The translations under genes and the position numbers were made by a program. This document shows, one piece after another, positions 1,274-52,540 of a stretch of DNA of 64,000 nucleotides (the first letter of the stretch is position 1; each line of letters opens with the position of its first letter). Under the pieces are notes generated by a model. The model had not been told where the DNA came from. It saw only the letters and a program-made list of their open reading frames with translations, and did not search any database. The stretch is from Raja brachyura (taxonomy: Eukaryota): assembly GCA_963514005.1 (NCBI GenBank), contig OY740812.1, positions 21,452,001 to 21,516,000 on the forward strand, read 5' to 3'.

Positions 1274-1455
1274 CAAAACACAAATTGCTGGAGAAACTTA
1301 GCAGGTCAGGCAGCATCTGTGAGGGAATGGGCAGATGACATTTCGGGTTGGACCCGTTTTCAGACTCCAGAATTTAAACTAGTCTGAAGAAGTCCCAACA
1401 CAAAACATCGCCCGTGCAATCCCTCCAGAGATGCTGCCTAACTCGCTGAGTTTTG
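1274..1455. mobile_element. Inverted (head-to-head) pair of PLE tail repeats with degenerate hammerhead cores
   Basis: Left arm ...gatgacatttcgggttggacccgttttcagact mirrors right arm agtctgaagaagtcccaac...gagatgctgcct across a 14-nt spacer. Confidence 0.7.
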
Positions 1456-1524
1456 CTAAAGTTCCCAGCATCTACAACCTGTTATGTTCCCTCATCCTCA
1501 AGTCCACCTCTATTAATAAATAGA

Positions 1525-1602
1525 ATCCCAACGCGAAACGCCACCTATCCATGTTCTCCATGGATGCTGCTTGACCGGCTGAGTTACTCCGGCACTTTGT
1601 GC
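1525..1602 (+). mobile_element. PLE tail repeat fragment
   Basis: cgaaacgccacctatccatgttctcc...gatgctgc...gagttactccggcactttgtg; same family as the other tails. Confidence 0.65.
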
Positions 1603-2595
1603 CTGTTTATTATTTTCATAAATAAAGCTGCACTTTGCAATTCTACCAAGAAGAAACACTGGGTGGCACCATTGTACATTGAATTATACCTTGTCAGCCA
1701 GAGAAACTGGTTAAGAAATTGGTTGTCTTGGGCGCTTGGCTCAGTCGTTTAGTAAAATAGTTATTTAATTGAAATATGATCAATGCGTCGTGTCCCGTTT
1801 CACACCTACAGCAAACGTGTGTTATTAAAATAAATTTAGTGTCAATCATTTGAGAATTCAATATTCTCCCTGCTTATTTTCCATGTGTTTCAACGTCGGT
1901 ATGAGACAATTTTAACTACATTTGTTATTGTGGGTTTCACAACAAGTATACCGATTGAATCCCATTGCGTCCCCACCACACATAAGGATAGCAAAATCAG
2001 CTCCTTCTCCCCCATTTTATTTAGTAAACATTCTTGCCTGAGTCAGAAGGGTGACTCGAAATAGTGGATCAGTAAAATCCAGGCTGGGAATTTGCTGATC
2101 TATGTTTGAGGTGCTCTCTTTTGGGTGAGAGATGACCTAGAAATTCCTAACTCGCTGACTGTCATAAATATGTTAGAAACTGTGTGTTCTAATTGTTGAC
2201 TGCTTTTAAGCCGATAGCATTGAACATATTCGTCGTTAGAATCGGAAATGAATTAAAATATTGTTTAAAATATCGCATCTGCCATTTTGGAGATATTACG
2301 TCCACTATTTATGTGGGGTTTGGAGAGTTAGCCTAAGTATAGTGGCCGTGTTTTAACAATGAATGAACTTGCTATTTAATGAGTATAACGTTGAAGTAGG
2401 TCATATTATTACGTTGCCGCCTGCAGGAGCTAACTGTGAAAATTGGCTGTGGTGTTTTCCATTTTCAGTTCAAAAACTGCGTCCTTGATTGTAAACTTAT
2501 TGAAGTGTCCCGTGATAGTTAAGGACGTTATCTGATGTCAGGGCTTCGCCTCTTTGCGGCGATTTATTAAAGAATGTCACAGACAATAAATAGGA

Positions 2596-2715
2596 TAGAC
2601 ACAAAATGCTGGAGTGACTCAGCGAGACTGGAGAGAAGGGATGGGTGACGTTTCGGGCCGAGACCCTTCTTCAGTTTCTATCTTCGGTGTAAACCAGTAT
2701 CTGCAGGTCCTTCCT
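2596..2715 (-). mobile_element. PLE tail repeat with intact hammerhead core (2644-2674)
   Basis: Reverse complement reads CTGAAGA-A-GGGT-CTCG-GCCC-GAAA-CG-TC-ACCC. Confidence 0.7.
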
Positions 2716-3767
2716 TAGACAATAAATAGGGACTGGTTTGGAGAGAGAATGCATCTGAGAGTCGCTGGCTTGAATTGTCCATAATTGTTGTCTGCCTACC
2801 TTACTCAGTAAGCCTGGAATAGCATCAATAAGTAACACGCAAACATTGACAGCAAACATGCCCTTCCTCGACACATTCAGGTAAAATTACGAGACATTGC
2901 CCTAAATTAATGTAAAGCATGTCATTAAGTTGTATGTAAAATATTCCAGGGTATATATTGTGATTTGTAGTATTTGCTAGTTTTCCTGATCTATTATTGA
3001 GTCTAATGGGCCAGTTAAAAAATGGTCGAATGATGGACATACAACAATAGGGACTCAGTTACATTTCTCCAGTTTTCAAACTTATTCATGTTCCTCCACT
3101 ATGTTTTCTGGACCCTCTTGAAAGGTGTAAAAAAAACCTGCCGACGGTCTGTATTCTCTTTTTTTCTGGCGTGTCAGGTAAACAATTAGTCACCGTGACG
3201 GCGAGTCAACAGTAACTCGGCGCCTGTCGCTGGTGTAACTCCGCGGGGGTGAATTTGTGGAGAGCTGGCGGCTGTCCGTGACTCACACACACAGCCTCTC
3301 AGCTTCCTCGCTGCTCCTGGGCGCGCGGTGGGAAGGGTGTTTCGCAAAAGGTGGAGACAGCATTGTTTTTTTTGTGTGTGTCAGGCGTCTGCGATCGTGG
3401 AGAAACCGGCAGCGCAGGTTAGACCACACCTAACTAACTCCCAGCAACCAAAACACTCTGATGCATTGCTGGAGGTGGATTGGAAGTTATTTAGAAGTTT
3501 GGTAATCTTGCAAGTAAAAAAAAGAATATAAGTGTACATTATAGCATAAAGGTACACGTAAGCGATGCACTGATTATAGATTAAATGGGTATAAATATCG
3601 CAACCCGTCCAAAATTGCATTGATTTTAAAGGAAGACAATATTACAACAGAAAAAATAAATAAAAAATATATAGATTCTAAACCAGTATCGAGTTCGAAT
3701 CCCATCTCAGCCACTCGGCCAGGAGTTTAGCGCAAAGTTTGAGATGACTCCAAACTCTAGAGATAAA

Positions 3768-3860
3768 TCTGAAGAAGGGTCTCGACCCGAAATGTCACCC
3801 ATTCCTTCGCTCCAGATATGCTGCCTGTCCCGCTAGTTATTCCATAATTTTGTGTCTATC
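3768..3860 (+). mobile_element. PLE tail repeat with hammerhead core (3769-3800)
   Basis: CTGAAGA-A-GGGT-CTCG-ACCC-GAAA-TG-TC-ACCC followed by the family tail ...gctgcctgtcccgct...ttttgtgtct. Confidence 0.7.
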
Positions 3861-4209
3861 CCTGGAAATATAGCAGTGTAAGGACTAATCGCAGATATTT
3901 CAAATGAGCTGGTGTAATATTCTGCTTCTATTTCCTTTGCAGTCTTTCTAGCGTGCATAGGTTAACAGCAAGAAAGTGGCCGGCATATATATGTTTTAAA
4001 GAAATGAGGGAGTTGCCGACCCGATGGGTTATAAGGAAACGTGTTGGAGCTTGTTCCGAATTCTGTTTTAAATTCTTCAAACCTCTGAAAATGTATGTTT
4101 GGAAGGAGCATCCACCGACAGGCAGACACTTTTAATAGTTGAGGAAGAGTGATAATAGACTTGGCTCCACAAACACGAGCGTGGGAAGTCTGAAAAACTT
4201 GAGGCTGCT

Positions 4210-4439: not shown

Positions 4440-4773
4440 ATGAGTGGGAGCTATGAGAAAAAGCTGCCGGGTCTTTTGACGGACATTCAGAGTTCGATGG
4501 GCTGTCATCCCGCGAAAGATTCGCCAACTCTTCCAGAGTCTACGGCGACAGATGTTGGTTACTATAACCCGCAGAGCTGTCACCCCCCGCACGACTACTA
4601 CACGACTTCAGCCTATTCCCAACCTGTGAACCATTATCCGTATCACCAGTTTAACCTGAACAATCTTCCGGGGCCTGGCTCTTACTCGGAGAAGCCCGAG
4701 TACGCTTACAACAACTCGTACCGCCAGTATGGCCATTTCCACAGAGATCATCAAGTATCCGCGGCTGAGAGAG
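4440..4773 (+). CDS. dlx3: Distal-less homeobox 3, coding exon 1 (phase 1)
   Basis: [42 protein letters not shown] matches the DLX3 N-terminus (MSGSFDRKL...[18 protein letters not shown]); donor GAG|GTAAGG at 4773/4774. Confidence 0.95.
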
Positions 4774-4988
4774 GTAAGGACTCGTGAATTACCCAGTCGA
4801 CCAGAGAGTTTGTGGGAAGCGTTCTATTTGCAAACGAATTGTTGAATAATGCTGGATTCTCCAAAAGGGTAACGGAAGCGCTTCGTCTATTCAGTGGCCG
4901 GCGAAGAGGCTGCATGTTTACATATGACCAGTCACACCTGATCGGTCATTAAATATTTGAACTGTTAATCAATATATCTACACAACGC

Positions 4989-5055
4989 CACAAAGTGCTG
5001 GAGTACCTCAACAGGTCAGGTAGCCTGACCCGCTGACTGACTCCAGCACTTTGTG
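4989..5055. repeat. 67-nt inverted repeat (PLE-tail derived) in Dlx3 intron 1
   Basis: Arms 4989-5020 and 5024-5055 are complementary at 27 of 32 positions around a 3-nt loop. Confidence 0.85.
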
Positions 5056-5124
5056 TGTTAACCATCATCTGCAGTTCCTTGTTTCTACATATCATCAATA
5101 GAAATCAGGCATAATATTGAACAT

Positions 5125-5215
5125 AGACACAAAATGTTGGAGCAACTCAGCAGGACAGGCAGCATCTCTGGATAGAAGGGATGGGTGACGTTTCGGGTCG
5201 AGACCCTTCTTCAGA
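5125..5215 (-). mobile_element. PLE tail repeat in Dlx3 intron 1, antisense to Dlx3
   Basis: agacacaaaatgttggagcaactcagc...gggtgacgtttcgggtcgagacccttcttcag. Confidence 0.75.
5184..5215 (-). ncRNA. Minimal type I hammerhead ribozyme motif (best-preserved core in the window)
   Basis: CUGAAGA, extra A, stem II GGGU-CUCG-ACCC, GAAA, CG, UC; predicted cleavage between 5187 and 5186. Stem I is truncated to ~1 bp in this copy. Confidence 0.6.
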
Positions 5216-6752
5216 ATATTCAGTAATATTGCACGAGGATTGCAGTACTAGCACAGAGAGGCAAATCGGTAGAATATACACAGTACAATAGCATAGACTC
5301 CAGAGGCGAAGCTATCGATAGTCTGGCGCTGTTATTAATGCACCCAAAGCCTCGCTGCGGGGTATACGGCTCTTTGTCGGGAGATTCCGCTGTAAATGTC
5401 ACACTTCGTTAACTAAAGAATTTGAGTTTTAAGTAAGAAACCACATTTATGTTCACAAGGGCGCCGGTCGAGACAGGAAACGTCAAGTGTTCGATTCTTC
5501 GGCGAAACCAAGATCCCAGGGATAAATGCGAAAATCGCGTGGATTCCATTAGCGAGGACACTATTTATGAAAATGGCAGTTTTGCAGCAATCGGAAGCTG
5601 CAGGAAGTTCAGAGGCGCCATCAATAGATGCCCTGTCAGTTGTATGCGCGCACTGTTTTAATATGGTTATTCCGCGTCGTTTTATCAACGTACAAAGATT
5701 GTTTTTATTTTGCATGGGCGTGGGGAAATGCGGCATTCTTTTTGTAGAGGGAGTCCGACCCAACCCGTGTGGCGAGGTGGAAAAGTGGGTCAGGTATTGC
5801 GTTAGGATCATGGCCGAATTGTAGCTTCTGGTCGGAACGAACTGGCGAACTCTGGTCAGACTCGGTCCTGGCAGGCGAGAATGTGAAGGGTCTTCATGAG
5901 AAACATGGATTGTGGATTACGAGTCCCATTTCCCTACGATTGATAGACTAATTCTCAAAGGGAAAAATGGCGATAAGCAACACAAGATTCGCATATCACG
6001 GTACCTTAATTGGTACACGTGACAATAAAAGACCTTGTGAAACCTTTGAAGATGGCCTCACGAGTCCGAGTGATGCCCCCCCCCCCCCCCCAATAATCTT
6101 TTCAGAATTTTAAAACATTTATACACAAAATTAAAACAATGCAAAACAAATCTTCGGATATTTTCAACGTCATATTAGTGTCATCTTCAACAGTGTTCGC
6201 AATTATCCCTAAGCCAAGCATCCTTGCCACTCTTGTGTCGCTGTTGAGAGGTTTGCGACTTGTTGTTTCTCACTCTGCCAGGATACCATGCTGAGTACCA
6301 TGGGCTCACAACATATGTAAATATATCAAGTTATAAGTGAATCAATACGATTACGCTGAGCATCGATGCAGCGGAATGGAAAACTGGAAATTCCATATTC
6401 AAATGAGAACAATCGCTCGTATCTTATAATATTAATTATTAATTATAATAGTTATTCGCCCTTTCCCTCTGTTTGTAACGTTGCAATGGAAATAATCTTT
6501 GAACTGAGTAGCCGTATGGAAAAATAGCCCAGAGTTTAGAGACAGTATGTTTCTCAATTAGATTAATCAACATGACATCCCTGTCGCCTGAAGGAATCCA
6601 CCAACATATTTTAATTCTCTGTTCCATTTGATTTATTCTGCGTGAAATTAAATCCCTTGCTTAAGGGGAAATGATTTGCTGACTGCAAAACTTCCACCAT
6701 TCTGGGAAATCTTTGTCTTAAAGTTCGTTTTCTTTTTGTTTTTGTGCTGCAG

Positions 6753-6943
6753 TTTCAGTGAAAGAAGAGCCGGATCCCGAAGTGAGGATTGTCAACGGGA
6801 AACCCAAAAAGATTCGAAAACCGCGAACGATCTACTCCAGCTTCCAGCTGGCCGCTTTGCAGAAACGTTTCCAAAAGGCCCAGTATCTGGCGCTACCTGA
6901 GAGAGCGGAGCTTGCGGCTTCCCTGGGACTTACGCAAACACAG
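6753..6943 (+). CDS. dlx3: Distal-less homeobox 3, coding exon 2 (homeodomain N-terminal part)
   Basis: Polypyrimidine tract and CAG at 6750-6752; splicing gives [64 protein letters not shown]; donor CAG|GTAAAA; 334+191 nt = 175 codons. Confidence 0.96.
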
Positions 6944-7267
6944 GTAAAACTCGATAATCTCGCAGTATCGGTGCGCCCACTGCGTTTGAATTTCACCCTG
7001 TGCCCTCAGGCTAAGGCTTGCCCTGGGAAGATGAAGTTAGTATCAGTGTAGATTTAGACTCCACGCCCGTTTTTGTTGTTGGAAAAGCCCTCCCTTTATT
7101 AACCGGGTGTACCAGCTGAGATAATATTCTCTCTTAAATACCTTTAATGTCTTTCTAGGAGGTGTATTCCAACCATTCTACATAATCTCCCATTACTTCT
7201 CCTTTCCCGTTCTTTATTTTTCATAAATCTGCTTTGAGGGTAAATAATATTTCATAATATTATTTTA

Positions 7268-7485
7268 TAGACAATAGACAATGGTTGCAGGTGTAGGCCA
7301 TTTGGCCCTTGGAGCCAGCACCGCCATGCAATGTGATCATGGCTGGTCATCCCCAATCAGTACCCCGTTTCTGCCTTCTCCCCATATCCCCTGATTCTGC
7401 TATTTTTAAGAGCCCTATCTAGCTCCCTCTTGAAAGCATCCAGAGAACCTGCCTCCACCGCCCTCTGAGGCAGAGAATTCCACAG
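7268..7485 (-). mobile_element. CR1-like LINE 3' fragment in Dlx3 intron 2
   Basis: agacaatagacaat tail with a body homologous to 230-470. Confidence 0.7.
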
Positions 7486-8350
7486 ATATTTTCCTTAAAT
7501 ATTTTACTCCCTGTCACTATATGGTTATTTCTACAGTCAACCCTTATCCCTTATCAAACTTCACAAAATAAGTGCCAACTAAATATGGATAATGTAAGAC
7601 TGCAACATTTCAAGTGTGGCGCAAATTCATGAGCAGTGGTGCAGACAACAGGATTAGTGTGTATTCACGTTACCTGATTAATGACAAAATAAGATTCAGC
7701 AAATATTTACATTCATTAAGTTTATGTCCACAGATGGAATTCCCTACATTAATTAAACTCAGTGTATTGCCCACTCCAGTATTTGAACCAGAGTGGCCAT
7801 ACCATCAACACACGTGGCTGGATAGAACTAAGAGTCTCTCAATATCTTTGATGCTCAACCATTTGGAGAATTATATCACTCAAATCAAAATTTGATGTTA
7901 AAATGCACAATCACTTATGACCTGTTTTAGCTGGGAAGTTGTGGCTTACAAACTAATAAACAACCTTCTCAGTTGGAAAACATTAGAAATATAGGTGACA
8001 TTGGAGCAAAATATTTCAGCTCAAAGTATTTCAAAGGCTCCTGCAAAATGTCTTCTTAGTTGTTTAAGATAGACTGCCATGGATTACTTAAAGGGCATCC
8101 ATGAAATATAAAGCAACTCAATTGAGTAGGATTTTCACAATTTAGAAGTTTACCTATGTTTACTGCTACAATGACCAGCAAAAGGAATTAGTTAATTGCA
8201 CTGAAATAATCCCTACAATAATTGCTGTGGTGTGCATAATTCCAAGAGATTAATTTATAATGGTATCTCTCGCTACTTATTTATGTGCTTATTCGTTCAT
8301 GTTCTTAGTACTTGCCAATTGTAATTAATTTTTCTTTTCTATCTTTCCAG

Positions 8351-8656
8351 GTGAAAATTTGGTTTCAGAATAGACGATCCAAATTTAAGAAGTTATATAA
8401 AAATGGGGAACTCACAATGGAGCACAGTCCCAACAATAGTGACTCAATGGCATGCAATTCACCTCCTTCTCCAGCTATCTGGGAAAGTCATAGTACAACT
8501 CGGAATCCCCTCCAGCATCAGAACCCACATCATTCTTCTCAGAACTACCTGGAAGACTTCAATCACTGGTACCCAACACACCCTTCAGACTCTCACTTAT
8601 CAGCAACAAATTCACTGCACCAGCCCTCAGCTCAGAGTACTGGAGCAGTCTATTAA
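8351..8656 (+). CDS. dlx3: Distal-less homeobox 3, coding exon 3
   Basis: Acceptor tttccag|GTG; [39 protein letters not shown] and a terminal GAVY* are diagnostic of DLX3. Confidence 0.96.
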
Positions 8657-9310: not shown

Positions 9311-11975
9311 ATGTATATAACATTTTACACATCAATTGTATAATAATAATAATTAAGAAACATCCTTGCGGGTAATTTTCAAGAACATGTATGACACTGC
9401 GAGGAATTCCTCAAAGAGAGCCTACATTTCTTTGGAACAAATTGGCTTGTAATGGAGACTCAGTGGACAATAACCTCTATTGTAACTTATGGTCTGTTTT
9501 GTAATAAAATATTTTAAATGTTTGATGATATTCTTGAGGATAATGTTAATAAAACTAATTGTTCCATGACCTGTTTTACTCACCTTATTTTGAGAAAAGA
9601 GCATCTTATGCCATGAATTACATTGACAAGAATAGTTGCCCAAAACTAAACTGCTACATGAACTCTTAATATTTATGTCATGCCCCATTAAGTCTAAAAG
9701 CCACTATACATCACTAAATATTCATACTTTTGCATGAAGTTGCATTTTATTGAAAGTATCATTTTAGTAGTGTTTACTTTCATCCTGTTTATACTAAATA
9801 ACCTATTTAAAGTGACCCAAAGTTGCACCTGCATTTCACTAAGGACCAGAAACATGCTTGCTGTTAAACTGTGAGGAAAGTTCACCAATTTACATTCTAA
9901 TCCATTTCCTGGATCGTGCTTACTATACAAATTGGAGCAAATGCCGAAAATACAACAAGGAAATGTAACTAGATGAAAAAAAAATCAAGAGCTACGTAAA
10001 AGGTCAGCATGTGGATAGCAAATAGTTAAAAATACACCCATCTCCTGCTATTAAAGGCAGTTTGGTTGGAGGGCTGCGTGCAAAAGCTCTATAGGCGACA
10101 GCGAGGCAGACATTCTGGAGACACTGAGTTGTGTGGAGCAGGATTTTATTAGGCACGACTGCCAGAAAAAAACTGCTCCATCGCCTGGGGTTAATATCGT
10201 GCTAGAATTCACATACCAGCAAGTGCATCAAAGCTGTTGCAATTGCCAGGCTGACTACAACAGGAGCTGCCCGACTTAACCCCTTTCTTACCAAACTCAG
10301 CCTCCGAATACAAATAACACCGCCCGCCTTTACAAAGGCAGGGACCTGTACACCACTTGATTGAAGCGGGGCTGGGATGGAGGAGGGGACGACGGAGCAG
10401 AGGGGGGAAAAAGGTTGTGACTTAAACCAAATGACATGCGTTTTCGAGCAATCCTGCCCCCGTCCTGTTATACCCCATGCATCAGACGAATGTTTAGGGT
10501 GGGAAACCATTTCAAGTATTGTCATTTTCCTCAGGTGATACATAAAGATTGGAAATGCAAATAATTAACTCAGAATCGATTCCGATTTCATTAACAAGAC
10601 GCTACATATATTAAAATGCAAAGACATGCTCTGTACAAGCTTTTACTGTAGTATTTACAACACTCCCATCCGCATATAAACAGGTCGGCGGGTGGTCCAT
10701 TTTATAAGCGTTCTGGGTGTATTTGTATCGGTTTGCACATCTATGCATATAGGTGAACGATGACAATACCTTCCTCGGATCGTGAGTACGTGTAATCCTT
10801 CCAGCGTTCCGGCACACCAACGCGGCGTCCTAACAACAGCTTGCTGTACAAGTCCTCACTTTTTTTTTACTCTAACCGGGATGCTCGTGGATCAGTTGTT
10901 TGTATATCTTGGCGCTCGCAATGAACAAGTCTGCGTAATAGACACGCTAGATTAAATACCGTGGGTGGTAATTAAAATGATATAACGGAATCCTAACAAC
11001 AGTCCCTTCATTGCAGTTGGGATGATGTTTGTGCCTTTTGCAAAGGATACGCCGTAATTCTGCATAATGTGAACCTAAAGCCCCAGAAGCAACGAGAGGC
11101 CAAGAAGATTTAGCGTACAGCGCAGGATGTTCGTGTGTTGGTTTATACAGTCTTATGTTAACTAAACCAGGATGTGGCCAGTCCTCTGTAAGGATAATTT
11201 TAATAAATCCAATGATTCCAATTAATCTAAAAAGAATATTTGCGACCAGTAAAATAATATTTCCACCTCAATGAATGGCTCTGCCACAGTAGACAGTGAC
11301 ACCTGTAAAAAATCATTTGGGAAAGAGAGTTCCCGAATACAGAAGTCTAAATAATTAAATTATATCGCCAGATAAGAACAAAGACCGGTGGTTTCATGGA
11401 AGCCCTGAAATATAAATTAGAAGCAGCAGTTAAAATCACTCGTCATTTATCCGTCCTCTTTATTAAAAAATGCAGACATGACATTTGCATTGTTTCACTG
11501 ACATTGTCCGTTATTATATCGTCTCATTATCCAAGTAACTACACTGTAGGCTTTGTCGTGGATGATTTACAGAAAACTTTCCCCTCTGTGCATGGACGTT
11601 CCTCTCAGATATAGCATGCTTGTGTCAGAATGGTTACAATAAAATACTATAATTTTGTGATTGCATTGTATCAAAGAACTATGGGTGGATATGTCCAGTC
11701 TTGTACGTGGCGGTGTGGATGTAATGTGCGGGAAACAAGCGAACGATGCATTGTGATTAGACGGTGTTACAATTTGATGACTTGTCCTAATTACAAATAT
11801 AAGTATCTCAGGAAGATTGCAATGTTTACAGACGCCCAATGTAGTGTCAAATGCATTCTAGTCGCCACTGCTGTTCGTCCCGAATTGTCCTATAACGAGC
11901 TACATTTTTTAATAAAAGGTATGTGAAATGAAAACTAAAACATTTTGGGGTGTTAAGCAAAAAAAAAAAACCCAA

Positions 11976-12145
11976 ATTGCCGGCGAAACAGCGCGTCAGA
12001 CAGCATCTGTGGGGCGTAAATAGACAGAATACCCTTCTGACCCGTCGACTGTCAATTCCCTCCACAGACGCTGCTTGACTCGCTGAGATTTCCAGCAGTT
12101 TGTTTTTTTTGCTCTAGATTCCAGCATTTGCAGCCTCTTGTGTCG
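11976..12145. mobile_element. Degenerate inverted PLE tail repeat
   Basis: cagcatctgtgg... mirrored by ...ccacagacgctgcttgactcgctgag...ccagca; the hammerhead core is lost. Confidence 0.55.
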
Positions 12146-32300: not shown

Positions 32301-32379
32301 AGTATATTAGGCGACGGAGTTTCTGATGACCTGAAGGGAGAGTTTGTCACAAAGGGGGCAAATCAGTTAATTGGAAAAA

Positions 32380-32835
32380 CGAGGAACTGCAGATGCTGGT
32401 TTACAAAATAAGACACAATGTGCTGGAGTAACTCAGCGGGTCAGGCGGCATCTTTGGGGAACATGCTTAGGTGCGGTTTCAGGTCGGGTCCCTTGTTCAG
32501 ACTGATTAGAGAGAGGAGGGGCAGGACAAAGCCTGGCAGGTAACAGAGTTGATACAGGTGAGGGGAAGGGGCTTGAGATGTAGATGGTTGGACAAAGGCC
32601 ATAGATGAAAAGACAGAAGGCGTGAGACAAAAGGATTGAAGAGTTGCGAATTGTGAAGCTTGAGAAAAGAATGTAGGTGGAAGGAGAGGGGGAGGGGAGA
32701 AATAGGTGCAAGTCCAGGTGAAGTACGAGAGGGGGGGGGGGGGGGAGGGGAAGGGTTGGGGGAGAAGGGAGAGGGGGAGGGTTTTATAGTGACCTAAAAT
32801 TGGACACTTCAATGTTCATGCCGTTGAGTAGTTAA
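32380..32835 (-). mobile_element. Penelope-like 3' fragment (endonuclease C-terminus through hammerhead tail)
   Basis: Reverse strand reads NGMNIEVSNFR, then a C/T-rich 3' region, then a decayed core (cagtCTGAACAagggacccgacctGAAA) and the family tail. This links the short tail repeats to a PLE. Confidence 0.75.
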
Positions 32836-34241
32836 TTGCTCGTTTTCTCAGATCTTCTTCTCCTACCATCTTTTTGACAGGACAATGATCGACGAATACA
32901 ATTTTAAATGAAAATTATATCCAAAGTATTTTTTAAATATTCGTTTATAGGTACCGTTAATTTAATTGTTTGTTTTTACCGTAAGCTCAGATAAAGATTG
33001 AATACGGTTTCAATTGGCGAAACCGCTCCTAATCATCAAGAAAATAATCTTAAATACGAGCGTGCAATCGTTATTTGGTTCATCCAGACTTCACTTTGTA
33101 TAGTCAGCATTTATTTTCCCTTCGCCCAAGTTTGATTGTGATTGTATTTGCATTCATCTATACAATTGTTCCTCAGTCTGGGATTTACATTTTATCCGAG
33201 GGCGGAGTTTTCACAGAAATTGTAAATATGAGCATCAAAAATGTTCTTCAGAAAAAAAACAGGCAAAACCCAACATATTACGAGGCCACACGGATAACAA
33301 CATCCGGGGAAAATTGCTTTGATCAGTATAATAACGCACTCTATAGGAGAAAAAACGTCTAGCGCCAAAAGCGCAATTATGGGTCAAAATTGGCTCCCTT
33401 TTCAATTTTTTGTTGTTGTGCCGCACAACTGTGACTAGAGGAAAAGCAAATTATACGCCAATTCAGGGGGGGGGGGGGATCTGAATGTTACGAGCATCTC
33501 ATCTGGATGAAATGAATGCTTTTCCATAGATATAAGACGTCGGGGGGTAGGGGGCGATTGAAATTAATTCATGGTTCCTGCCACAAAAAATAAAGGCAAA
33601 TTCGGACGAAACTTAAATTTACTGTGTGAAATGTGGGATGATTGATGAGCAAAAGTGCACCGCGGGCGTGCTTATTTTTGTAGTATAACATTTGGACCTC
33701 TATTAATAGTCAAAGGCATGTCGGTCCATTTCCACGCAATATTTCTGAAAATGATACATTTAAATATCTAACCAGAGCTTCCCACGCCAGAACCGTGCAG
33801 ATGATTTCCTCGTGATTTTATTCCACATGCCCGGTACTCCAGTTTCTGGCTTTGTTTTTCAACACCGGTGGTCCCCCCCCCCCCCCCCCCACCACACACA
33901 CACACACGTGTAGTTCTGTTCTTTTTTAACTTGAGAACAGGTAATAGGTTTCATGCCAAGCATCCGTTAATCAGCAGCCAATAAACAGAGGACCAGAGAG
34001 TGTCTTAATTTGGACATTCAGTTTCTGGATATTGAATGAATTCAACCCACCTTAGATTTATACATATCACAAGCTATTTAACATGGAAATAGCCAAGTGC
34101 AGAAGGGTCAAATTAATGATGATCCCTTTTAATAATCATTCCTTTGAAAATTGTAGATGATCATAGGAAGAAATGGTGCAGATTAATGTTTCAAGTTCAC
34201 AATAACTAACAACCAGCATCAAACTATTAATCCCACCAAAG

Positions 34242-34320
34242 GTAGACAGAAATGCTGGCGAAACTCAGCGGGCGAGGCAGCATCTATGGAGCGAAGGAAT
34301 AGGTGACGTTTCGGGTCACC
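34242..34320 (-). mobile_element. PLE tail fragment
   Basis: tgctggcgaaactcagcgggcgaggcagcatct...ggtgacgtttcgggtc. Confidence 0.65.
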
Positions 34321-34960: not shown

Positions 34961-35005
34961 ACAAGGAGACATAAAGAACTGCTGATGTTGGAATATGCAA
35001 GAATC

Positions 35006-35100
35006 TAGGTCTGAAGAAGGGTCCCAACCCATAATGTCGCCTGTCCATGTCCTCCAGAGATGCTGCCTGACCCGTTGAGTTACTCCTGCTCTTTGTGTTT
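35006..35100 (+). mobile_element. PLE tail with decayed hammerhead
   Basis: taggtCTGAAGAagggtcccaaccc-ATAA-tgTCgcctg: GAAA is mutated; the flanks could form a 5-bp stem I including G-U pairs. Confidence 0.65.
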
Positions 35101-36546
35101 TATCAAGACTCATGTTCCCTGCAAATCATATTGAACTTCACACAAGTTGCAAATTACATCCCATCGCGTAATATATCACATGTTCCACATGAACCATGAT
35201 ATTTGCATAGCTTTCAATAGAAAGGCATTAGCTGCAAATTGAGCATTAGTTGATCGTTAATTGATCCACATTCAAGACTCCTGATCTGAAATGTCACCTG
35301 TCCATTCCTTCCCCAGGTGCTGACTGAGCAGTTGAGTTGCTCCAGCACCTTGAGTTGTGATCCACATTCATACCTGTTGTTGTTTATGAACTTTAACCAC
35401 ATTCCAGTCCTGACTGAGCTATTCGACATACTTTATTACAGTTGTTAATTATTTGAAACGTATTCTACCAGAAACAGTCTAGACTTTATCGCAGATAATT
35501 GTTCAGTTTAATCCATTTCCAGTGATATTCAATCAAGTATTTAAAAAATTTACACATACTTTATAATTGGCTGTTTAAAATTGATCCTGCAATAATGGAT
35601 GCATTAAGAATTGCATTTAAACAGATTCTTGCAGATTCATAGTCAGATGGAATTGTCATAATTGGATAAGAATACACGTAACATAATTTAGATAATACAT
35701 AATTTGCTACATTGAGAATGACATATATTGTGTTACAAGAGAAAAAGGTAATTCAGCAATCAGACGACAAAAGCAGAAACCTGAAACTTAAGAACTTTAT
35801 CATTTAAACCCCTCAGACTAGTCTTAAGGTCATTTAAGATAATTTTGTCATCCTCTTAAAATATTGGACAATTTGATAGTGATTTTATTCAGCATTATCC
35901 TTTTTTGATTCAAGTAGCTTTGTGATGAGATTTGTATTGACAACAAAATAATTATTACAAGCCTATTGTGATATTCGCATTTAATTACCAGGAAAATGGA
36001 TGGCATGAATAAATGCATATTTGAACTTATTCTACAAAGAAGTGAGGCAGCTGTGCAATAGAAATCTAAAGATACAGTACCATCAGTTGAATCAATAACA
36101 TCTGGACTATTGTTATATATTTGTATTTGGATTATCTTGATTGTGTTCTTTCAGGTTATGTTCTGATGGGGATGCAGTGATCTGAAACCACTGAACTGGA
36201 GTTAATTTACACAGTGTACATGAGCAGGAGTTATCCAGTGCAACTTGTTACAAAAGTGATCAACAGTTCACTGAATGTCCTCATCATGACTGAATGTGGT
36301 CCCATGGTCTTCCCCACAGCAGATTCCAACACTGCTAAGAATTCAATCTCAAACAGAAATAAAATCATATATAACATTATATAAAACATATAAAACTATG
36401 AGAAGCAGAGATAGCACAGGCAGTCAATAACTTGTTTCCCAGAGTGCAAATGTCAAAGACTAGAGGGCATAGGATTAAAGCAAGAAGGACATAGTTTAAA
36501 GGAGGTGTGCGGGGCAAACTCAGACTTCAGGACTTCAGTACTGAGA

Positions 36547-37504: not shown

Positions 37505-37600
37505 AAAGTAACTCAGGCAGATCTCTGAAGAGAAGGAATGGGTGACATTTCGGGTCGAGACCCTTCTTCAGATTGAAGGAGGGTCTTGACCCGAAACATA
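37505..37600. mobile_element. PLE tail with back-to-back inverted hammerhead cores
   Basis: Minus-strand core at 37541-37571 abuts a plus-strand copy tgaaggagggtcttgacccgaaaca. Confidence 0.7.
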
Positions 37601-41895: not shown

Positions 41896-42534
41896 AACTA
41901 CAACTTATGTTACTACCTATCTTTGTGCCAAATCTGTACATTTATCTAGATCATTGATATGAATTGCAAACACACTTGGCCATCAGCACCAACCCTTACA
42001 GCACCACACTCATTACATCTTTCCCACCAGAAACAAAAGGTTAATTTAAGTTTCATCACTATTCCATATTAGCCAGCTAAGTTTCTATCCAGGCCAATAT
42101 AAGTACCTCCAATTTGCTTATATATTCCTCAATATTGCTTGCTGTAGCATCATATAAAAATGCCTTCTGGTAACCCAAATTTCTACTTATTCCTCTTTAT
42201 CCACAGCACATGTTATTTATTCAAAGAAATTCCAATAAAGTGGTGAAACATGATTTCCTTGTTGCAAAGCCATGTTGACTTTGCCTGATTACCTTAACTG
42301 TTTCCAAGTGCGCTGCAATGGCTTCCTTAATAATAGCAGTTACCATTTCAAATTTAAATTTAATTACTTAAGTCAATTTGGAATAAGATGTTCGTGTTAA
42401 TAACAGTGGTCGTGAAACTATTGAATTGTCGTTAAAAACTTGTCTGTCAACCTGTCTGTAACTCCAGACTCCCTCGTCCATTCCAGAACAGTTGGGGATG
42501 GAGTATAAAATGTCAGTTCCCAGTAATTAATGAG

Positions 42535-42655
42535 TAAAGAAGGGGTCTTGACCCCAAGCATCACCTATCCATGTTCTCCAGAGATGCTGCCTCATCTGCT
42601 GGGTTTCTCCAGCACTTTGTGTCCTTTTGCCTTAATCAGCATCTGCAGTTCATTG
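42535..42655 (+). mobile_element. PLE tail repeat, decayed
   Basis: gaaggggtcttgacccc...cacctatccatgttctccagagatgctgcc...ctccagcactttgtg...cagcatctgcagttc. Confidence 0.65.
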
Positions 42656-44590
42656 GTTCTACTATATGAAAAACTTGTTAGGCTTTATGCAGGCCCGATT
42701 TCTGAGCTGGTTCAAGATGTCTTGGGGAAATGTTAGTTTTAGTGATATCTTCAAGACAGTGCATTAATCGCATAAAATACACAAACTGTCATAGGTATGG
42801 TATAGCGTGATTATTATTTTTTAAAATTCCATTCATAGGAAATGTAAATTTCCATTCTACCACAGATTAAGAGAACACATAATGCTTGACAAAGTTCTAG
42901 GCCTTGCCCCTTTTGTTACATCTGCATTAGATTTAATTGGTCAGATGGAACAATTTGCACAATTACTATGAGGAGAAAATATCACCTTGTCATCTGGATA
43001 TCCCTGGAAGCTCGGTGTTGTCTTTGCAGTAGCAAAAGTACAAAACACTGCCTGAGATAATATAGAACTCAGTTTTGTCTTAATCAACAAGAGGAGAAGT
43101 TTGTTTCTCTGTTAATCCTCTTGCATTAGTAACTCCAAACTCTCTTTGCAAATCTGACACATTTATTCTCTGACACTCACGAATAAAGGCACCAGAAATT
43201 CCTTCCAGAATGCAGTTATTAGAAACCAGTTTGAATCTGATATTAATATACACTGCTTCGTGTGTGCCTTTCCCCAACAAACATATGTAACTATTCAGGC
43301 AGAGAACCTTACAGCAAGTTGTCAGCGAAGTATGTCTTATTTTGGCCTAAGATATAATTTTAATGATAAGATATTAAATATACACACATTACAATTTGCA
43401 ACATGATGCACCCATCTCTATTACATTTATAACCAATGTGGGTTATGTGCACAAATTACCCACATTCAGTTAACAGTAGCAATTAGGAGAAGATTAAAAC
43501 TAGATTGATTTTCAGTCAATGGAAAATTCACATATCAGATATTCACTTAGCAAAAGTATTACAGTCAAGTGAGCTTAAGACATAGTTACATTAGCATTTT
43601 GTCTGTATGTAACAATATATTTGGAGGTCCATGACTATTATAATTATTATCCATGGGGCTTAAAGCAAAGCACTATTTGGCCCCAAACCAACAAAATAAT
43701 TGAAACATAATATTAAGGAAAATACTACCAAATTGTACATTTCAGTTAAGTCTGAAATATTGGCTTAGTATCATTTGTCCTAATTTGGGAACTGGCTCGT
43801 TGTGTATGCACCATTGGGTATCCATCTGAAAATGTTCCAGGGCCAATTTTTACCCCATCTGTGTGGAGATTTGATTTCCTGACAATATACATGACATTTA
43901 TAGCCCTTAAATTGAGCTATGATAGTGCCCTACGGTTGATCATTTGAAACTTCTTGCTCTGCATTGTTTAATTTGTGGTATGAGATCATTGAATTTAAAT
44001 GTGTTAAAGTTGCATTTAATATTCATAAGGTCATGTTATAGAAGCAGAATTAGGCAATTCAGACATCAAGTCTACTCCGCCATTCAATCATGGTTGTTCT
44101 ATCTTTCCCCCTCAATGCCATTCTCCTGCCTTCTCCCCATAATCCCTGACACCTGTATTTTGATTCTATAATACCAGTACTATTATTGGAGTGGACTTTA
44201 TGATATCTATATTACTAAAAGTCTCATCTTGACACTTCCTGTTGTTCTGTATATTGATTTTAGAAAAAACGCCGCCACTTATGGCTGTGACATCTTACTC
44301 AGAGTCCCCCTCCGCTGCGCAGGTAAAGAGGATTTTTCCCATCGATGTAAAGTAAAAGAGTTATTAGTGTTTAAAAAATGTTGAGATTCTCTCTCCTGAA
44401 GGCCATGCCCCTTCTGGAGGGACTAAGAAACCCGGAAGTGTTTAATGACTCAGTCAGTCTGTGCAAGATGGGGGAAGCGAGATGGTCACGTCTCTCAGTC
44501 TGAGCTGTGAATAACACTGAACACATGTCTACTAAACTGTGAGTGGTTTTACTGACCTGTCAGTGCCCTTAATGTGGTTTGAAAATATAG

Positions 44591-44771: not shown

Positions 44772-45056
44772 TAATTAAAGTTGCCTTACCTAATTAAAGT
44801 TGCCTTGCCTTCAATATAATTAAAAGTACGGCTGTGATTTTTGGCCATCTTACTCAGTCCCCCTCCGCTCATCAGGTGCCAAGGATTTTTCCCGAAGAAA
44901 AATAAAAGAGTCATTAGTGTTTAAAAAATGTTGAGATTCTTTCTCCTGTCAATCACAACATGAAGGCCACGCCCCTTCTGGTGGGAGGGGTGGAGGGACT
45001 ATAAAACCCAGAAGTGTAGGCATGGCTCAGTCTCTGCAAGATGGAGGCTGTCTTTA

Positions 45057-45178
45057 GTGGCCTTGCATCCTGCTTGAAGTGGTATGAAACTGCACTTGAA
45101 TTTGGTGGCCTTGCGCCCTGCTTGAAGTGGTAAGAAACTGCACTTGAATTTGTTGGCCTTGCACCCTGCTTGAAATGG
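45057..45178 (+). repeat. 48-bp tandem repeat, ~2.5 copies, inside Helitron 1
   Basis: Unit GTGGCCTTGCATCCTGCTTGAAGTGGTATGAAACTGCACTTGAATTTG. Confidence 0.9.
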
Positions 45179-46247: not shown

Positions 46248-46550
46248 GGCACCATAGTGGGAATGCCTGTAGAGCTGTTGCCTCACAGCGCCAGAGACCT
46301 GGGTTTGATTCTGACTTCGGGTGTTATCTGTGTGGAAATTTCATGTTTTCCCTGTGACTGTGTGGGTTTCCTCCCTCATCCCAAAGACATGCAGGTTTGG
46401 AGGTAAATTTGGAATCTGTAAATTGCCCTTAGTGTATATGGAGTGGATGAGAAATTGGGATAACATAGAACAAGTGTGTAGGGCTGATCGATGGTCAGTG
46501 TGGACTTGGTGGTCCACTGTGCCTGTTTCTATTGCTGTATCTCTAACAAA
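46248..46550 (+). mobile_element. V-SINE (HE1-like), diverged
   Basis: gtagagctgttgcctcacagcgccagagacctgggtttgatt head, V-domain, and a cctgtttc..ctgtatctctaa tail. Confidence 0.75.
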
Positions 46551-48710: not shown

Positions 48711-48994
48711 GTCAAAGGCTACAGTGTAGGATCTATTGAATCCCACAACAAAACACAAAGAACAAACGACACTTAGCTGAGCCAGACACCTTGTGTCACG
48801 TTTATTCCAGAAGCCCTTTTTACCTACATTCTCACCGATCATAACTCATGTGCAGATAAGGCCAATTAGTGCGTCTGACCTTGGAGTTTTTATTGAACTC
48901 ATGAGGCTGCTGGTGAGTCGTGAATGGTGACCGGCAGTATGCAAAACCAATGAAGGTATGAAGGCGCCATAACAGAAAGAAAGAAAGAAAGAAA

Positions 48995-49105
48995 GAACTG
49001 CAGCTTCAGCAAAGGACACAAAGTGCTGGAGTAACTCAGCAGGTGAGGCAGCTTCTCTGGAGAACATGGATCGGTGATGTCTCGGGTCAAGGCCTTTTCT
49101 CAGAA
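48995..49105 (-). mobile_element. PLE tail repeat, decayed
   Basis: gacacaaagtgctggagtaactcagcagg...ggtgatgtctcgggtcaaggccttttctcag. Confidence 0.65.
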
Positions 49106-50197
49106 AGGTGCCATTGTTATATCACACTAGTTATTATGGCCTCGTTAAGAAAAATAATATTATTTCAATTTTTACCCTTGATTAATAAATACGTCCCTAT
49201 TTGAATGGCAACATGAATGGTTAGAGGAATAGGCTGATTATGTTTCTGTGCGAGAGAATGGGAGATAACGTGTCACTTCCATTTAGCGAACTGAGTTAAC
49301 GAGTGTGAGATGGATAGGAAACTGATTAATGACTTGAGCTAGCTCTCCTGGTACATGGATCTCCTGATTCACTTATGTCCTACTCAAGGCTTCAGTATAT
49401 ATTCTGCCTGTGGCATGTAATATCTGACCACTGCAATAAGTTATAACTAAAATGCTGACAATCATTAGAAACGTTGCTGGGCCAGAGACCTATCTTTAAC
49501 ATTTGCCTTGTTTTAATAATTTGTAATGGTTTTAGCAGATGACATAATGCATTTATCATTGTGACTAGTTTCTGATGTATGCCATATGGAGCACATGTGC
49601 CATGATATGACTCCAGGTCACTGAATGATGTGAATGAAATCATTCCAAGTTCCCTTTTACAGATATTTTACATTGGCAAAGCCCATATTTTAATAATTTA
49701 GTCTATCATCAGCCAACATACCAACAGAAGTGTAAACAGGTTGCGACACCACTATTAATTGAAATTCATGTGCTAACAATTTAAGCAATATACTTACATA
49801 TGAAGCTTAGAGCTTGTTGAGTGGAAAGCTATTCAATAAATTTAATCCTCGGTCGACTGGATTCATCTCACTCGCTGTTCTGATGTGTGTAGTTTCACTT
49901 CATGCAAGCCTCTGGCAGGGCAGCAGCCATTATCAGCTTCTGGGACATCATGGGTTAGTTGAAGGCAATAAAGGGAGACCAGGATCTTTAAAAAAAATCA
50001 GCAAACTTTTCAATAAAAACTTCCAACAGAAAATCTGGTGAAAATTGAGAATGAGGCGATCACTGTTAGGTCTAGTCTCTTCATTTTATTTCTGTGCTTC
50101 TGCTCCCATCACCATTTGCACAAACTCCAGCCAATATAAGGTTTTGCACCATAGACCTATGAAGCTGAGAGATCAGGGAAATGGGTTAAGGATAGAA

Positions 50198-50280
50198 GAG
50201 ACAAAGTGCTGGAGTAATTCAGGGGGTTCTCAGAAGAACATGGATCAGCAACGTATCGGGTCGGGACCCTTCTTCAGACG
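50198..50280 (-). mobile_element. PLE tail repeat, decayed
   Basis: gacaaagtgctggagtaattcag...caacgtatcgggtcgggacccttcttcagac. Confidence 0.65.
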
Positions 50281-50804
50281 ATTCAATTTGGTCTGATTCA
50301 GTTCAGTGGGTTACGGATGCAGCTTGAAGCTGGGACATCAGTGATATTCTGTTTCCCTCAATTTTGTCTTATTTTCTAGCAGGGTTAACAGAGAAAATTC
50401 CTTCCCCCTTTGGATGCAGTAACAAATAGCTCAAACCTTTTATGTTGTTCTGTTTTTCTTGCAATGCTATTGACTAGCTAATCAATACCATGAAAGATCG
50501 GGCTGTTGAAGTGGAAGTGAAACGCTCTGGAGCAAGTCATTCAAAATGTACATCCTAAATTACAGTATAAACATACACCTGGAATTTCCACAGGTAAATG
50601 ATTGGTAGAAATTATAGAGGAATGACATAAATGGCTACAATTTGCTGTTGAAGATGTTGTTCAGAGTTCTCTTTCAATCTATGGATCGAGTTATGCTGGA
50701 GAGAGGGAGAGCCCATTGGCATCTGCAATTTCAACTAAAGGTGCAGAGTACACAGATGTGTAGAAGAAAGTGTTTACAGGTACTACAGAATATATTGCTT
50801 AGGT

Positions 50805-51295
50805 TCAACTTTAGGTTTATTATTGTCATGTGTACTGAGGTGCAGTGAAATGCTTTGTTTTGCATGCTATTCAATCAGATCGGATAATACTATCATAAGT
50901 CATATGATCATAAGTGAGAGGAATAGAATTAGGCCATTTGGCCCATCAAATCTATTCCATCACTCAATTATGGCTGATCTATCTCTCCCTCCTAACTTAA
51001 ATCCAATTAGTTGTGGTTCTCAGCATTGCAGTGTGTTGTAGTGCATCAGTTCCAGAGACAAAATTCAATGTCCACAGTGGGGCAGAGGCGAATTGGACAG
51101 AACCCCGGCTTATGGAAGGACCGTTCAGAAACCTGATAACAAGGAGGGCTGTTCCTGAGTCTGGTGGTATGAAGCTTCTGTACCTTCTGCCAGATGGGAG
51201 CAGGGAGAAGAAGGAATGACCAGGACGGGGCAAGTCTTTGATAATGTTGGCTGCTTTTACAAGGCAACGTGAAGTGTAGATGCAGTCAGTGGTGA
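50805..51295 (-). mobile_element. Rex1/Babar-like 3' fragment interrupted by a short CR1 tail (~50900-51005)
   Basis: PGHSFFSLLPSGRRYRS coding remnant; the tail matches 40165. Confidence 0.65.
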
Positions 51296-51569
51296 ATTAA
51301 TATGATATTGGAGGCTTACTAATCTATTATTCAATCACCTCATAATTTGAAAAGGTGACTAAAAACATTTCTATACACATAATAAATCAGTTAACAAAGC
51401 ATCATAAAGTCAAAAAATCAAAAGTATTGAATGAATTGTAAAGAAATATCAAGTCTAGCACCATCATTTTAATCAACATTCAAACCCCAAATGAGCTGGA
51501 GAACAATTCACCACAAATCATTTTGCAAAGTATTAATGAACCTGTAATAATGGATATACTTAGTTTAGA

Positions 51570-52540
51570 TACGCAAATTAGAGGAACACCATCTCATATT
51601 TTGCTTAGGCCGCTAACAGCCCAGTGGTATGAATATTGATTTCTCTCACTTCAGGTAGCCCCGGCATTCCCACTCTCTCTACCCCTCGCTCACCCAAGTC
51701 GCACTAGCTTCTCATTTTCACACTACAAACAGCTGTTTCCTGTTTCCTTTATCATTTTTACTTTTTTGCATATCTTTCATTCATTGTTCTTTACCTTTCC
51801 GCATCAGAATCAGAATCAGAATGCCTTTTATTGTCACTATACACATGTACAGTGAGATTAAAAACTGCTCCTACTCAGTGCAAAAACAAGACAAAAAGGG
51901 GGGGGGGGGGGGGATAAGGTGCACAGTTTCTGCAGCGCTATATACATATCTATAAAAAGACAATGGATAAATAGAATGGATAATAGGATTCCTATATCCA
52001 GTATGGGTTACAGTTACAGTACAAATTACAGTAGGTGGATAGATGAAGGTCTGGGGGTTAGGCTGTGAAGTCAATGCATGTGTGTGTTCAGGGAGATGAT
52101 GGATTTTGGAAAGAAACTGTTCTTGAGTCTATTTGTCCTTGTGCTAATGCACCTATAGCGCCTCCCTGAGGGTAGCAGGTTGAACAGGCCAAATGCGGGA
52201 TGGGAGCTGTCCTTGATAATGTTCTTCGCCCTGCTGAGGCAGCGGGAGGTGTAAATGTCCATCAGAGAGGGGAGAGGGCAGCCGATGATCTTCTGTGCTG
52301 CCCTGACTACCCTCTGAAGCCTCTCCCTGTCTGCCATGGTGCAGCTGCCGTACCATGCTGTAATGCAGTATGTCAACAGGCTCTCAATGGACGAGCGGTA
52401 TCTGTATCACCATCTGTATCATTTGTTTCCGTTATCCCTAACCAGTCTGAAGAAGTGTCTCGACCCAAAAAGTCACCCATTCCTTCTCTCCAGAGATGCT
52501 GCCTGTCCCGCTGAGTTATTCCCGCGTTTTGTGTCAATTT
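51570..52540 (+). mobile_element. Penelope-like 3' fragment split by a Rex1 insertion
   Basis: RKLEEHHLIFCLGR*QPSGMNIDFSHFR*; the 3' region runs to 51805 and resumes at ~52399, leading to ccagtCTGAAGAagtgtctcgaccc and the family tail. Confidence 0.75.
51806..52398 (-). mobile_element. Rex1/Babar LINE 3' end with intact ORF remnant
   Basis: ORF 52071-52376 TYCITAWYGSC...LQRVVRAAQKIIG...SHPAFGLFNLLPSGRRYR...RLKNSFFP; (GATTCT)n tail. Confidence 0.85.

What the first reader, a model, noticed from the sequence alone, without database searches (positions are those of the whole stretch)
1336..52480. Dispersed family of minimal hammerhead ribozyme motifs in a Penelope-derived repeat
Seen: about a dozen copies, many decayed, of CTGAAGA-A-GGGT-CTCG-ACCC-GAAA-CG-TC. 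Cores are intact or nearly so at 2644-2674(-), 3769-3800(+), 5184-5214(-) and 37541-37571(-), and decayed at ~1340, 1385, 22670, 32490, 35010, 37575, 49090, 50260 and 52446. Two long copies (32380-32835, 51570-52540) join the motif to a GIY-YIG C-terminus. Established: the hammerhead core is CUGANGA-stemII-GAAA-stemIII-UH; PLE terminal repeats carry minimal type I hammerheads whose short palindromic stem III (here ACGU) can form by dimerisation. Inference: an abundant elasmobranch repeat is a ribozyme-bearing PLE tail, possibly retrozyme-like. Caveat: stem I is only 1-2 bp in most copies.
Basis: partly seen in the sequence, partly recalled or inferred. Interest (0 to 1): 0.75.

Follow-up and report, generated by a model that had tools for sequence, protein, structure and literature searches.

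The report
Hammerhead-bearing ends of a Penelope retrotransposon
The repeat is the short end piece of a young, intact Penelope-type jumping gene and carries a known kind of minimal hammerhead ribozyme motif; the copies are likely reverse-transcribed from the uncut front end of the element's RNA, and whether the motif cuts RNA is untested.

Summary
All 13 sites are present; the window has 25-29 segments and shuffles have none. Only 2 of the 4 'intact' cores keep every core base. The genome has 84,635 exact cores and an estimated 1.2 million segments (about 4% of a random sample).

The motif lies in both terminal repeats (pLTRs) of intact, 98%-identical 4-kb elements encoding RT, a linker zinc finger and GIY-YIG (Neptune-type PLE). 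The same core in unrelated metagenome contigs, some beside PLE ORF pieces, has covarying stem I, so it is a minimal type I hammerhead as described in 2014.

'Retrozyme-like' is not supported: close neighbours are mostly head-to-head, not tandem. Here stem I is only 2 bp, the monomer is predicted to misfold, and 319 of 431 segments span the cut site, so the copied RNA was uncut.

Two features are testable additions. Copies start sharply 2-4 nt before the core, likely the transcript start. Head-to-head pairs join one short and one long 3' end more often than chance (42 of 58). Cleavage is untested. Verdict: a new, very abundant member of a known kind.

The parts
2585..2721 (.). Head-to-head mini insertion: short-ended copy on - strand (intact core 2647-2674) plus tail-only piece on + strand, with a 14-bp direct repeat at both ends
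3769..3865 (+). Copy starting at the core; C15.2 lost by CpG decay; short 3' end
5108..5214 (-). Copy with fully intact core (5187-5214), in the first intron of a Dlx gene, antisense to it
37513..37600 (.). Head-to-head pair: near-intact core 37544-37571(-) and decayed core 37573-37600(+)
1275..1456 (.). Decayed head-to-head pair (1363 -, 1385 +)
1522..1622 (+). Decayed copy lacking the 5' part of the core
4986..5089 (.). Head-to-head pair of downstream-only pieces (no core), one short and one long end
11956..12144 (.). Old head-to-head pair, one short and one long end
20292..20504 (.). Old head-to-head pair, one long and one short end
22609..22695 (-). Decayed copy
32375..32835 (-). Long 5'-truncated copy: last codons of the ORF (by eye), pyrimidine-rich spacer, decayed core 32473-32500, long 3' end
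34215..34319 (-). Copy starting inside stem II
35011..35101 (+). Decayed copy
35274..35356 (+). Decayed copy
42534..42662 (+). Decayed copy, long 3' end
48986..49104 (-). Decayed copy, long 3' end
50194..50277 (-). Decayed copy
51571..52545 (+). Long 5'-truncated copy: GIY-YIG C-terminus 51572-51652, spacer split by an unrelated insertion 51807-52405, decayed core 52447-52474
56904..56998 (-). Downstream-only piece, long 3' end
62648..62795 (.). Head-to-head pair, one long and one short end, with a 9-bp direct repeat in the flanks
23..229 (+). GIY-YIG C-terminal piece and spacer of a related subfamily, motif absent

Best explanation
The repeats are 5'-truncated copies of the terminal repeat of a Penelope-like retrotransposon with intact members in this genome, each carrying a minimal type I hammerhead motif, and they are likely made when the element's reverse transcriptase copies the uncut front end of its own RNA. 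Steps: (1, shown) intact elements read pLTR-ORF-pLTR, with the motif at both ends and the ORF start 163 nt downstream of C3. (2, shown as genomic ends; inferred as start sites) 3' ends fall at about +94 or +128, the two internal start sites that give the PLE 'tail'. (3, boundary shown; cause inferred) short copies begin at -4 to -2, most simply the transcript's 5' end in an initiator-like TCAGT, so priming in the 5' leader runs off after about 100 or 130 nt and floods the genome with mini copies, while priming in the 3' pLTR gives the rarer long copies. (4, inferred) a staggered cut and priming on both strands by a protein dimer give head-to-head pairs with one short and one long end. (5, inferred) the ribozyme is off by default, with a 2-bp stem I and the core paired to the downstream pyrimidine tract; it would cut only with help from the element's protein or a second copy, as a brake on or processing of transcripts rather than as a step needed for insertion.
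For: Architecture: 10 of 20 loci chosen for long ORFs have the motif at both ends, 3,979-4,051 nt apart, one with three in tandem. The ORF is 1,203 aa stop to stop, and 12 other long ORF alignments are 97.4-98.6% identical to L205. Pfam RVT_1 and GIY-YIG hits, both under the cut-offs; CX4CxxC linker and CCHH motif present. Core identical in 31 of 33 young contexts, the other 2 differing at N7. Across 7 subfamily consensuses 0 of 18 non-CpG core/stem columns vary against 15 of 55 downstream, p=0.015. Same core in 121 metagenome loci: over 46 distinct flanks, stem I mean 2.43 bp against 0.97 shuffled, 0 of 10,000; 21 tblastn hits to the PLE ORF in the flanks. 3' ends of 24 young termini: 15 at +94-99, 9 at +127-134. 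5' starts of 32 strict young-type copies: 20 at -4..0, none from -52 to -5, 3 longer, 9 at +1..+12, none at the cut site (8 belong to a sister subfamily with another spacer; without them 14 of 24 start at -4..0). Among 97 copies with unique flanks the signal falls to background upstream of -3. One full-length element (L201) also starts at -3. 319 of 431 segments span the cut site, 9 start within 2 nt of it, 1 ends there. Head-to-head pairs mixed short+long: 42 of 58 (expected 49%, p=3e-4), 28 of 32 in other loci, 5 of 5 in the window; flank repeats >=9 bp in 15 of 57 against 0.7%. Hammerhead fold 6.6-12.5 kcal/mol above the monomer MFE in 4 of 4 sequences. Literature: PMC11167929 shows two internal RT start sites, both-strand extension, protein-assisted cleavage and an unprocessed template for an anole PLE.
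Against: No RNA-end data: the runs laid were contigs from other organisms, RNA status guessed, and cannot show starts or ends. With finer clustering the core-versus-downstream contrast weakens to 1 of 18 against 16 of 55, p=0.054, and with CpG columns kept it is p=0.048-0.18. Within subfamilies the core decays like the flank (7.3% against 9.1%; CpG 21.9%), so individual copies are not under selection. Cofolding two minimal motifs pairs the stem II arms, not the ACGU helix. An old subfamily has C at position 9 in 23 of 25 copies. 10 of 11 full-length elements have a longer 5' pLTR, not a start at -3. Clade was not tested by a tree. PMC11167929 saw no strand difference in start-site use in vitro.
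Confidence: 0.7

Rival explanations
1. The motif is a hammerhead by descent but no longer cuts in this lineage; its sequence is kept as a promoter element just downstream of the transcript start, or as a protein-binding site.
For: Stem I is 2 bp in the youngest elements and 3 bp in an old subfamily. The hammerhead fold is disfavoured in silico; mean stem II probability is 0.11 in 25 own-genome cores against 0.50 in 115 metagenome cores. Copies span the cut site. PLEs have internal promoters near the start (PMC2377424 passages).
Against: The changes seen across subfamilies are those a hammerhead tolerates: N7, loop II, a U-A to U-G change in stem II, H17 C to U, and A or G at 1.1 opposite U. 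The D. virilis motif also has a 2-bp helix I and cut when helix III was lengthened (PMC4209133). The anole motif cut only with protein.
Confidence: 0.2
2. The sharp 5' boundary at -4 to -2 is an RT stall or fold-back point, or a splice acceptor (pyrimidine tract then CAG), rather than the transcript start.
For: Every subfamily has a pyrimidine-rich spacer ending in CAG-T before C3. In D. virilis an intron ends at helix I. TCAG-T-CTGA is a small inverted repeat, and self-priming has been proposed for PLE palindromes (PMC3846280 passage).
Against: A spliced template would leave a shared upstream exon, and none is seen in 97 unique flanks. No GT..AG joint to this site appears among the listed joints, and the joints near it also occur in a DNA-like run (many joints not shown). 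Unique-flank copies outnumber inverted ones 97 to 42.
Confidence: 0.25
3. The short repeat is an independent non-LTR retrozyme that spreads through self-cleaved circular RNAs.
For: Very high copy number; 27 same-strand neighbour pairs within 300 bp in 980 kb. A preprint reports retrozymes in one chondrichthyan genome and derives retrozymes from pLTRs (10.64898/2026.07.22.740005).
Against: Retrozymes are 150-450 bp head-to-tail repeats with canonical type I motifs (PMC7229834 passages). Here pairs are mostly head-to-head (87 of 143), there is no motif array in the window, and ends do not map to the cut site. Short copies share diagnostic bases with autonomous subfamilies.
Confidence: 0.05

Closest known systems
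[quoted passage not shown]
   Same: Motif in both pLTRs, extra base between 9 and 10.1, G10.1-C11.1 pair, palindromic 15.2-16.2, mostly dispersed single copies, some close pairs on opposite strands.
   Different: Stem I 2 bp instead of 4-5; stem II 4 bp; 84,635 exact cores against about 4,000 and 9,000 reported for coelacanth and Xenopus (different descriptor). No cartilaginous fish in the text parts read or the 2 supplements searched.
Drosophila virilis Penelope hammerhead variant (same paper)
   Same: 2-bp helix I, small palindromic helix III, found in a recently active family with many identical copies.
   Different: No bulge in helix II here; no intron shown; Penelope lacks the linker zinc finger.
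Poseidon element of Anolis carolinensis, PAc (Frangieh et al. 2024, PMC11167929)
   Same: Two 3' ends about 34 nt apart downstream of the motif; copies derive from uncut RNA; both strands used.
   Different: PAc's ORF starts inside stem II; here it starts 163 nt downstream, after a 41-codon upstream ORF. Linker zinc finger present. A sharp 5' boundary and short+long pairing are not reported in the parts read.
Neptune/Nematis clades of EN+ PLEs (Craig et al. 2021, PMC8557442)
   Same: RT, CX2-5CxxC linker, CCHH-containing C-terminal GIY-YIG, partial tandems, inverted 5'-truncated copies, 30-40 bp tail at one end.
   Different: Long Pro/Thr-rich insert gives a 1,191-aa protein; clade not tested by phylogeny.
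Non-LTR retrozymes (Cervera and de la Pena 2020, PMC7229834; Li et al. preprint 2026)
   Same: Short non-coding repeats with a type I hammerhead, related to pLTRs.
   Different: Not head-to-tail tandem, no canonical stem I, boundaries not at the cleavage site.

Membership tests
EN+ Penelope-like element | Single ORF with RT and C-terminal GIY-YIG | tested here: met
   1,203-aa open frame; RVT_1 E 3.8e-4 and GIY-YIG E 1.8e-3, both below Pfam cut-offs; 3,142 homologs at E<=1e-20, most listed ones with RVT_1
EN+ Penelope-like element | pLTRs from partial tandems; inverted 5'-truncated copies; optional 30-40 bp tail | tested here: met
Neptune/Nematis clade | CX2-5CxxC linker finger and CCHH motif | tested here: met
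   definition from PMC8557442
Neptune clade (versus Nematis) | Placement in an RT tree with named references | not tested
   no labelled reference sequences were on hand
Minimal type I hammerhead | Core C3-A9, G12-A15.1, U16.1-H17 | tested here: met
   33 of 33 young contexts; 84,635 exact cores; 2 of 13 named window sites fully intact
Minimal type I hammerhead | Stem II with G10.1-C11.1 and an extra base after A9 | tested here: met
   4-bp stem in all larger subfamily consensuses, one U-A to U-G change; no two-sided change within the genome
Minimal type I hammerhead | Palindromic stem III for dimer pairing | tested here: inconclusive
   ACGU present and conserved, but cofolding favours stem II arm pairing
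Minimal type I hammerhead | Stem I of 4-5 bp | tested here: not met
   2 bp in current subfamilies, 3 bp in an old one; covarying stem I only in relatives from other organisms; a 2-bp variant is published for D. virilis
Minimal type I hammerhead | Self-cleavage at NUH | not testable with these tools
   needs bench assay; genomic copies show no end pile-up at the site
Rfam hammerhead families | Covariance-model match | tested here: not met
   no hammerhead hit at E<=10 in the window
Non-LTR retrozyme | Head-to-tail 150-450 bp units each with a hammerhead | tested here: not met
   27 of 143 close pairs are same-strand; no array in the window; whole genome not scanned for arrays
Non-LTR retrozyme | Circular RNA joined at the cut site | not testable with these tools
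   only contigs were available

The most novel reading that the evidence does not exclude
The hammerhead sits at the very 5' end of the element's RNA, three bases from the cap. About a million genomic repeats are run-off cDNAs from two RT start sites to that end, and a single protein dimer uses one start site on each DNA strand in one insertion. The ribozyme has shrunk to a protein-gated off-switch that would decap the mRNA. This makes a vertebrate genome with intact copies a direct read-out of the unresolved PLE transposition cycle.
Probability: 0.35. Interest if true: 0.6.

Novelty: new member of a known kind. Interest (0 to 1): 0.36.

Why it matters
Hammerheads in PLE terminal repeats are known, so the core claim is not new. 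The value is in scale and tractability: about 85,000 intact cores, an estimated 4% of a vertebrate genome, and 98%-identical intact parents. How PLEs finish an insertion and what their ribozyme is for are open questions. The sharp 5' boundary, the two 3' ends and the short+long pairing give quantitative predictions for an in vitro system like the one published for the anole element.

Tried and rejected
Rfam scan: no hammerhead match. PDB sequence search with RT-EN: no match. Intron hypothesis: candidate acceptors before C3 and about 50 nt after it; contigs of 6 runs (X1-X5, X9) gave no convincing GT..AG joint, joints near the first site also occur in a DNA-like run, one single-contig joint (X2) was not interpretable, and many joints were not shown. 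Higher depth over the motif in the guessed-RNA runs is not used as evidence of expression. Cleavage-derived ends: no pile-up. Monomer folds of 6 sequences were not hammerhead-shaped, z-scores -1.9 to +0.8. Cap-derived extra G at -4: not enriched, 9 of 43. First structural alignment had 2 mis-addressed rows; it was redone with 23 rows, dropping L387 and four window copies and correcting L056. The 21 metagenome rows were hand-picked from 126 matches, so one search is the unbiased test. Two of 60 requested random stretches did not exist. Lunse et al. (dimer cleavage of PLE hammerhead variants) is not held; only its title was seen in a reference list. Literature searches for a cartilaginous-fish PLE hammerhead found nothing or unrelated papers; Repbase and Dfam could not be checked. 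Earlier findings of this scan: none.
Full report
Observation. All 13 sites listed are in the window. A profile built from 7 window copies finds 25 segments and none in 5 shuffles; a longer profile finds 29. Four copies keep CUGANGA, the 4-bp stem II and GAAA, but only 2647-2674(-) and 5187-5214(-) keep GAAACGUC. The long copy at 51571-52545 joins the last 27 codons of a GIY-YIG ORF (63%, E 3.5e-4 against an intact ORF) to the motif across a 600-bp insertion. The copy at 32375-32835 shows about 15 such codons by eye only. Rfam has no hammerhead match.

Abundance. The window lies in a 2.70-Gb genome. The exact core pattern occurs 84,635 times, the reversed control 0 times. In 98 evenly placed 10-kb stretches (980 kb) there are 431 segments and none after shuffling, covering 42,224 bases or 4.3%. 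That extrapolates to about 1.2 million segments. The same sample has 34 endonuclease-end pieces and 3 RT pieces, so short copies dominate.

Parent element. Walking upstream from the window's GIY-YIG piece led to a young subfamily. Of 20 loci chosen for long open frames, 10 have the motif at both ends of the ORF, 3,979-4,051 nt apart, and L215 has three in tandem. The frame is 1,203 aa, 1,191 from the first Met, and 12 other long alignments are 97.4-98.6% identical to L205. Pfam gives RVT_1 and GIY-YIG below cut-off. The CX4CxxC linker and the CCHH motif are present, which PMC8557442 (passages) gives for Neptune and Nematis. Named homologs with the highest identity are from sharks and rays. The ORF starts 163 nt after C3, behind a 41-codon upstream frame.

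Is it a hammerhead? In 33 young contexts the core is identical in 31 and differs at N7 in 2. Among 7 subfamily consensuses (194 usable copies; 4.7-17.5% internal divergence) no non-CpG core or stem column varies (0 of 18) against 15 of 55 downstream, p=0.015; finer clustering gives 1 of 18 against 16 of 55, p=0.054. Within subfamilies, copies decay about evenly (core 7.3%, flank 9.1%, CpG 21.9%). These share no downstream sequence with our family, yet their flanks pair: mean 2.43 bp against 0.97 in shuffles, 0 of 10,000, over 46 distinct flanks, with A-U/U-A and G-C/C-G swaps; 21 tblastn hits to the PLE ORF lie in the flanks. A hand-picked 23-row alignment shows two-sided changes in all four stem I pairs. 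So the motif is the minimal type I hammerhead of PLEs described in PMC4209133 (text parts 1-2 of 4 read; 2 supplements searched without hits, 1 not searchable), including the extra base after A9 and the palindromic stem III.

Is it a good one? In this genome stem I is 2 bp even in intact elements. An old subfamily had 3 bp and C at position 9 in 23 of 25 copies. Predicted monomer folds pair the purine-rich core with the pyrimidine tract after the cut site; forcing the hammerhead costs 6.6-12.5 kcal/mol in 4 of 4 sequences, and a dimer of the minimal motif pairs through stem II arms. 319 of 431 segments span the cut site, 9 start within 2 nt of it and 1 ends there; none of 32 strict young-type copies starts there. 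The copied RNA was therefore uncut, as shown in vitro for the anole element, whose ribozyme needs protein and is dispensable for insertion (PMC11167929, parts 1-2 of 4).

How the short copies arise. 3' ends of 24 young termini fall at +94-99 (15) or +127-134 (9), matching the two RT start sites behind the PLE tail. 5' ends are sharp: 20 of 32 strict young-type copies start at -4..0, none between -52 and -5, 3 run longer and 9 start at +1..+12; leaving out 8 copies of a sister subfamily gives 14 of 24. In 97 of 211 core copies with unique flanks, A, G, T hold at -3..-1 (65-82%) and the signal is near background from -4 on. One of 11 full-length elements starts at -3. I infer that -3 is the transcript start; TCAGT fits the initiator consensus (recalled; an Inr-like TCACT is noted in a pLTR in PMC3846280, passage). 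Close neighbours are 87 head-to-head, 29 tail-to-tail and 27 tandem. Of 75 head-to-head pairs within 60 bp, 58 could be classed and 42 join a short and a long end (49% expected, p=3e-4); 28 of 32 in other loci and 5 of 5 in the window do so; 15 of 57 have flank repeats of 9-14 bp against 0.7% in controls. Inverted copies and a one-sided tail are described qualitatively in PMC8557442 and PMC3846280; I did not find the 5' boundary or this count in print, but subscription papers and repeat databases were not searchable.

Retrozyme claim. Non-LTR retrozymes are head-to-tail repeats with canonical motifs (PMC7229834 passages; preprint 10.64898/2026.07.22.740005, parts 1-2 of 5, which reports some in one chondrichthyan genome; its supplements were not seen and may name this family). 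The window has no such array and boundaries ignore the cut site. RNA evidence was inconclusive: only contigs of other organisms' runs were available.

Verdict. This is a new, very abundant member of a known kind, with two measurable features that bear on the PLE cycle. Activity and the transcript start remain inferred. Interest 0.36.

Noticed in passing
window 4440-8500 (+) and about 19700-23300 (-): Two convergent Dlx homeobox genes (DLL_N hit E 1e-21; homeobox exons at 6815, 8348, 23212, 19825). The intact core at 5187-5214 lies antisense in intron 1 of the first; the copies lying sense in the second gene's intron (20400, 22695) are decayed. Too few to test for bias.
   Followed up: partly
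L261-L288 (old subfamily): Core reads CUGAUGCA: C at position 9 in 23 of 25 copies, with a 3-bp stem I; either an A9 variant or the extra base lies between G8 and A9.
   Followed up: partly
L205:3092-3116 and all subfamily consensuses: A pyrimidine tract ending in YAG-ATG about 50 nt after C3 is kept in every subfamily; it could be the strand that holds the core off, or a splice acceptor that would remove the ribozyme from the mRNA.
   Followed up: partly
L205:3114-3239: 41-codon upstream ORF overlapping the start of the main ORF in another frame.
   Followed up: no
L205 ORF residues about 170-470: Long Pro/Thr/Ala-rich low-complexity insert makes the protein about 300 aa longer than most listed homologs.
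   Followed up: no
L212:9351-9919: Tandem array of 54-nt units from the downstream part of the repeat, without the ribozyme core.
   Followed up: no
L283-L286 (contig C37): Four near-identical copies of a variant with a changed core on one contig, probably inside a larger duplicated unit.
   Followed up: no
P0054: A stingray protein named as a kinase-domain isoform matches the PLE RT-EN region at 65% over 73% of the query: exonised element or annotation artefact.
   Followed up: no
window 36546-36831, 41608-41903, 46269-46543, 52546-52836, 57030-57300, 59474-59753; 243-461, 7254-7487, 40737-40962: Other dispersed repeat families of about 200-290 bp, likely SINE/LINE pieces; not examined.
   Followed up: no
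window 54762-55209, 44590-44772, 45053-45178, 55652-55757: Tandem repeats of 69, 31, 48 and 30 bp.
   Followed up: no
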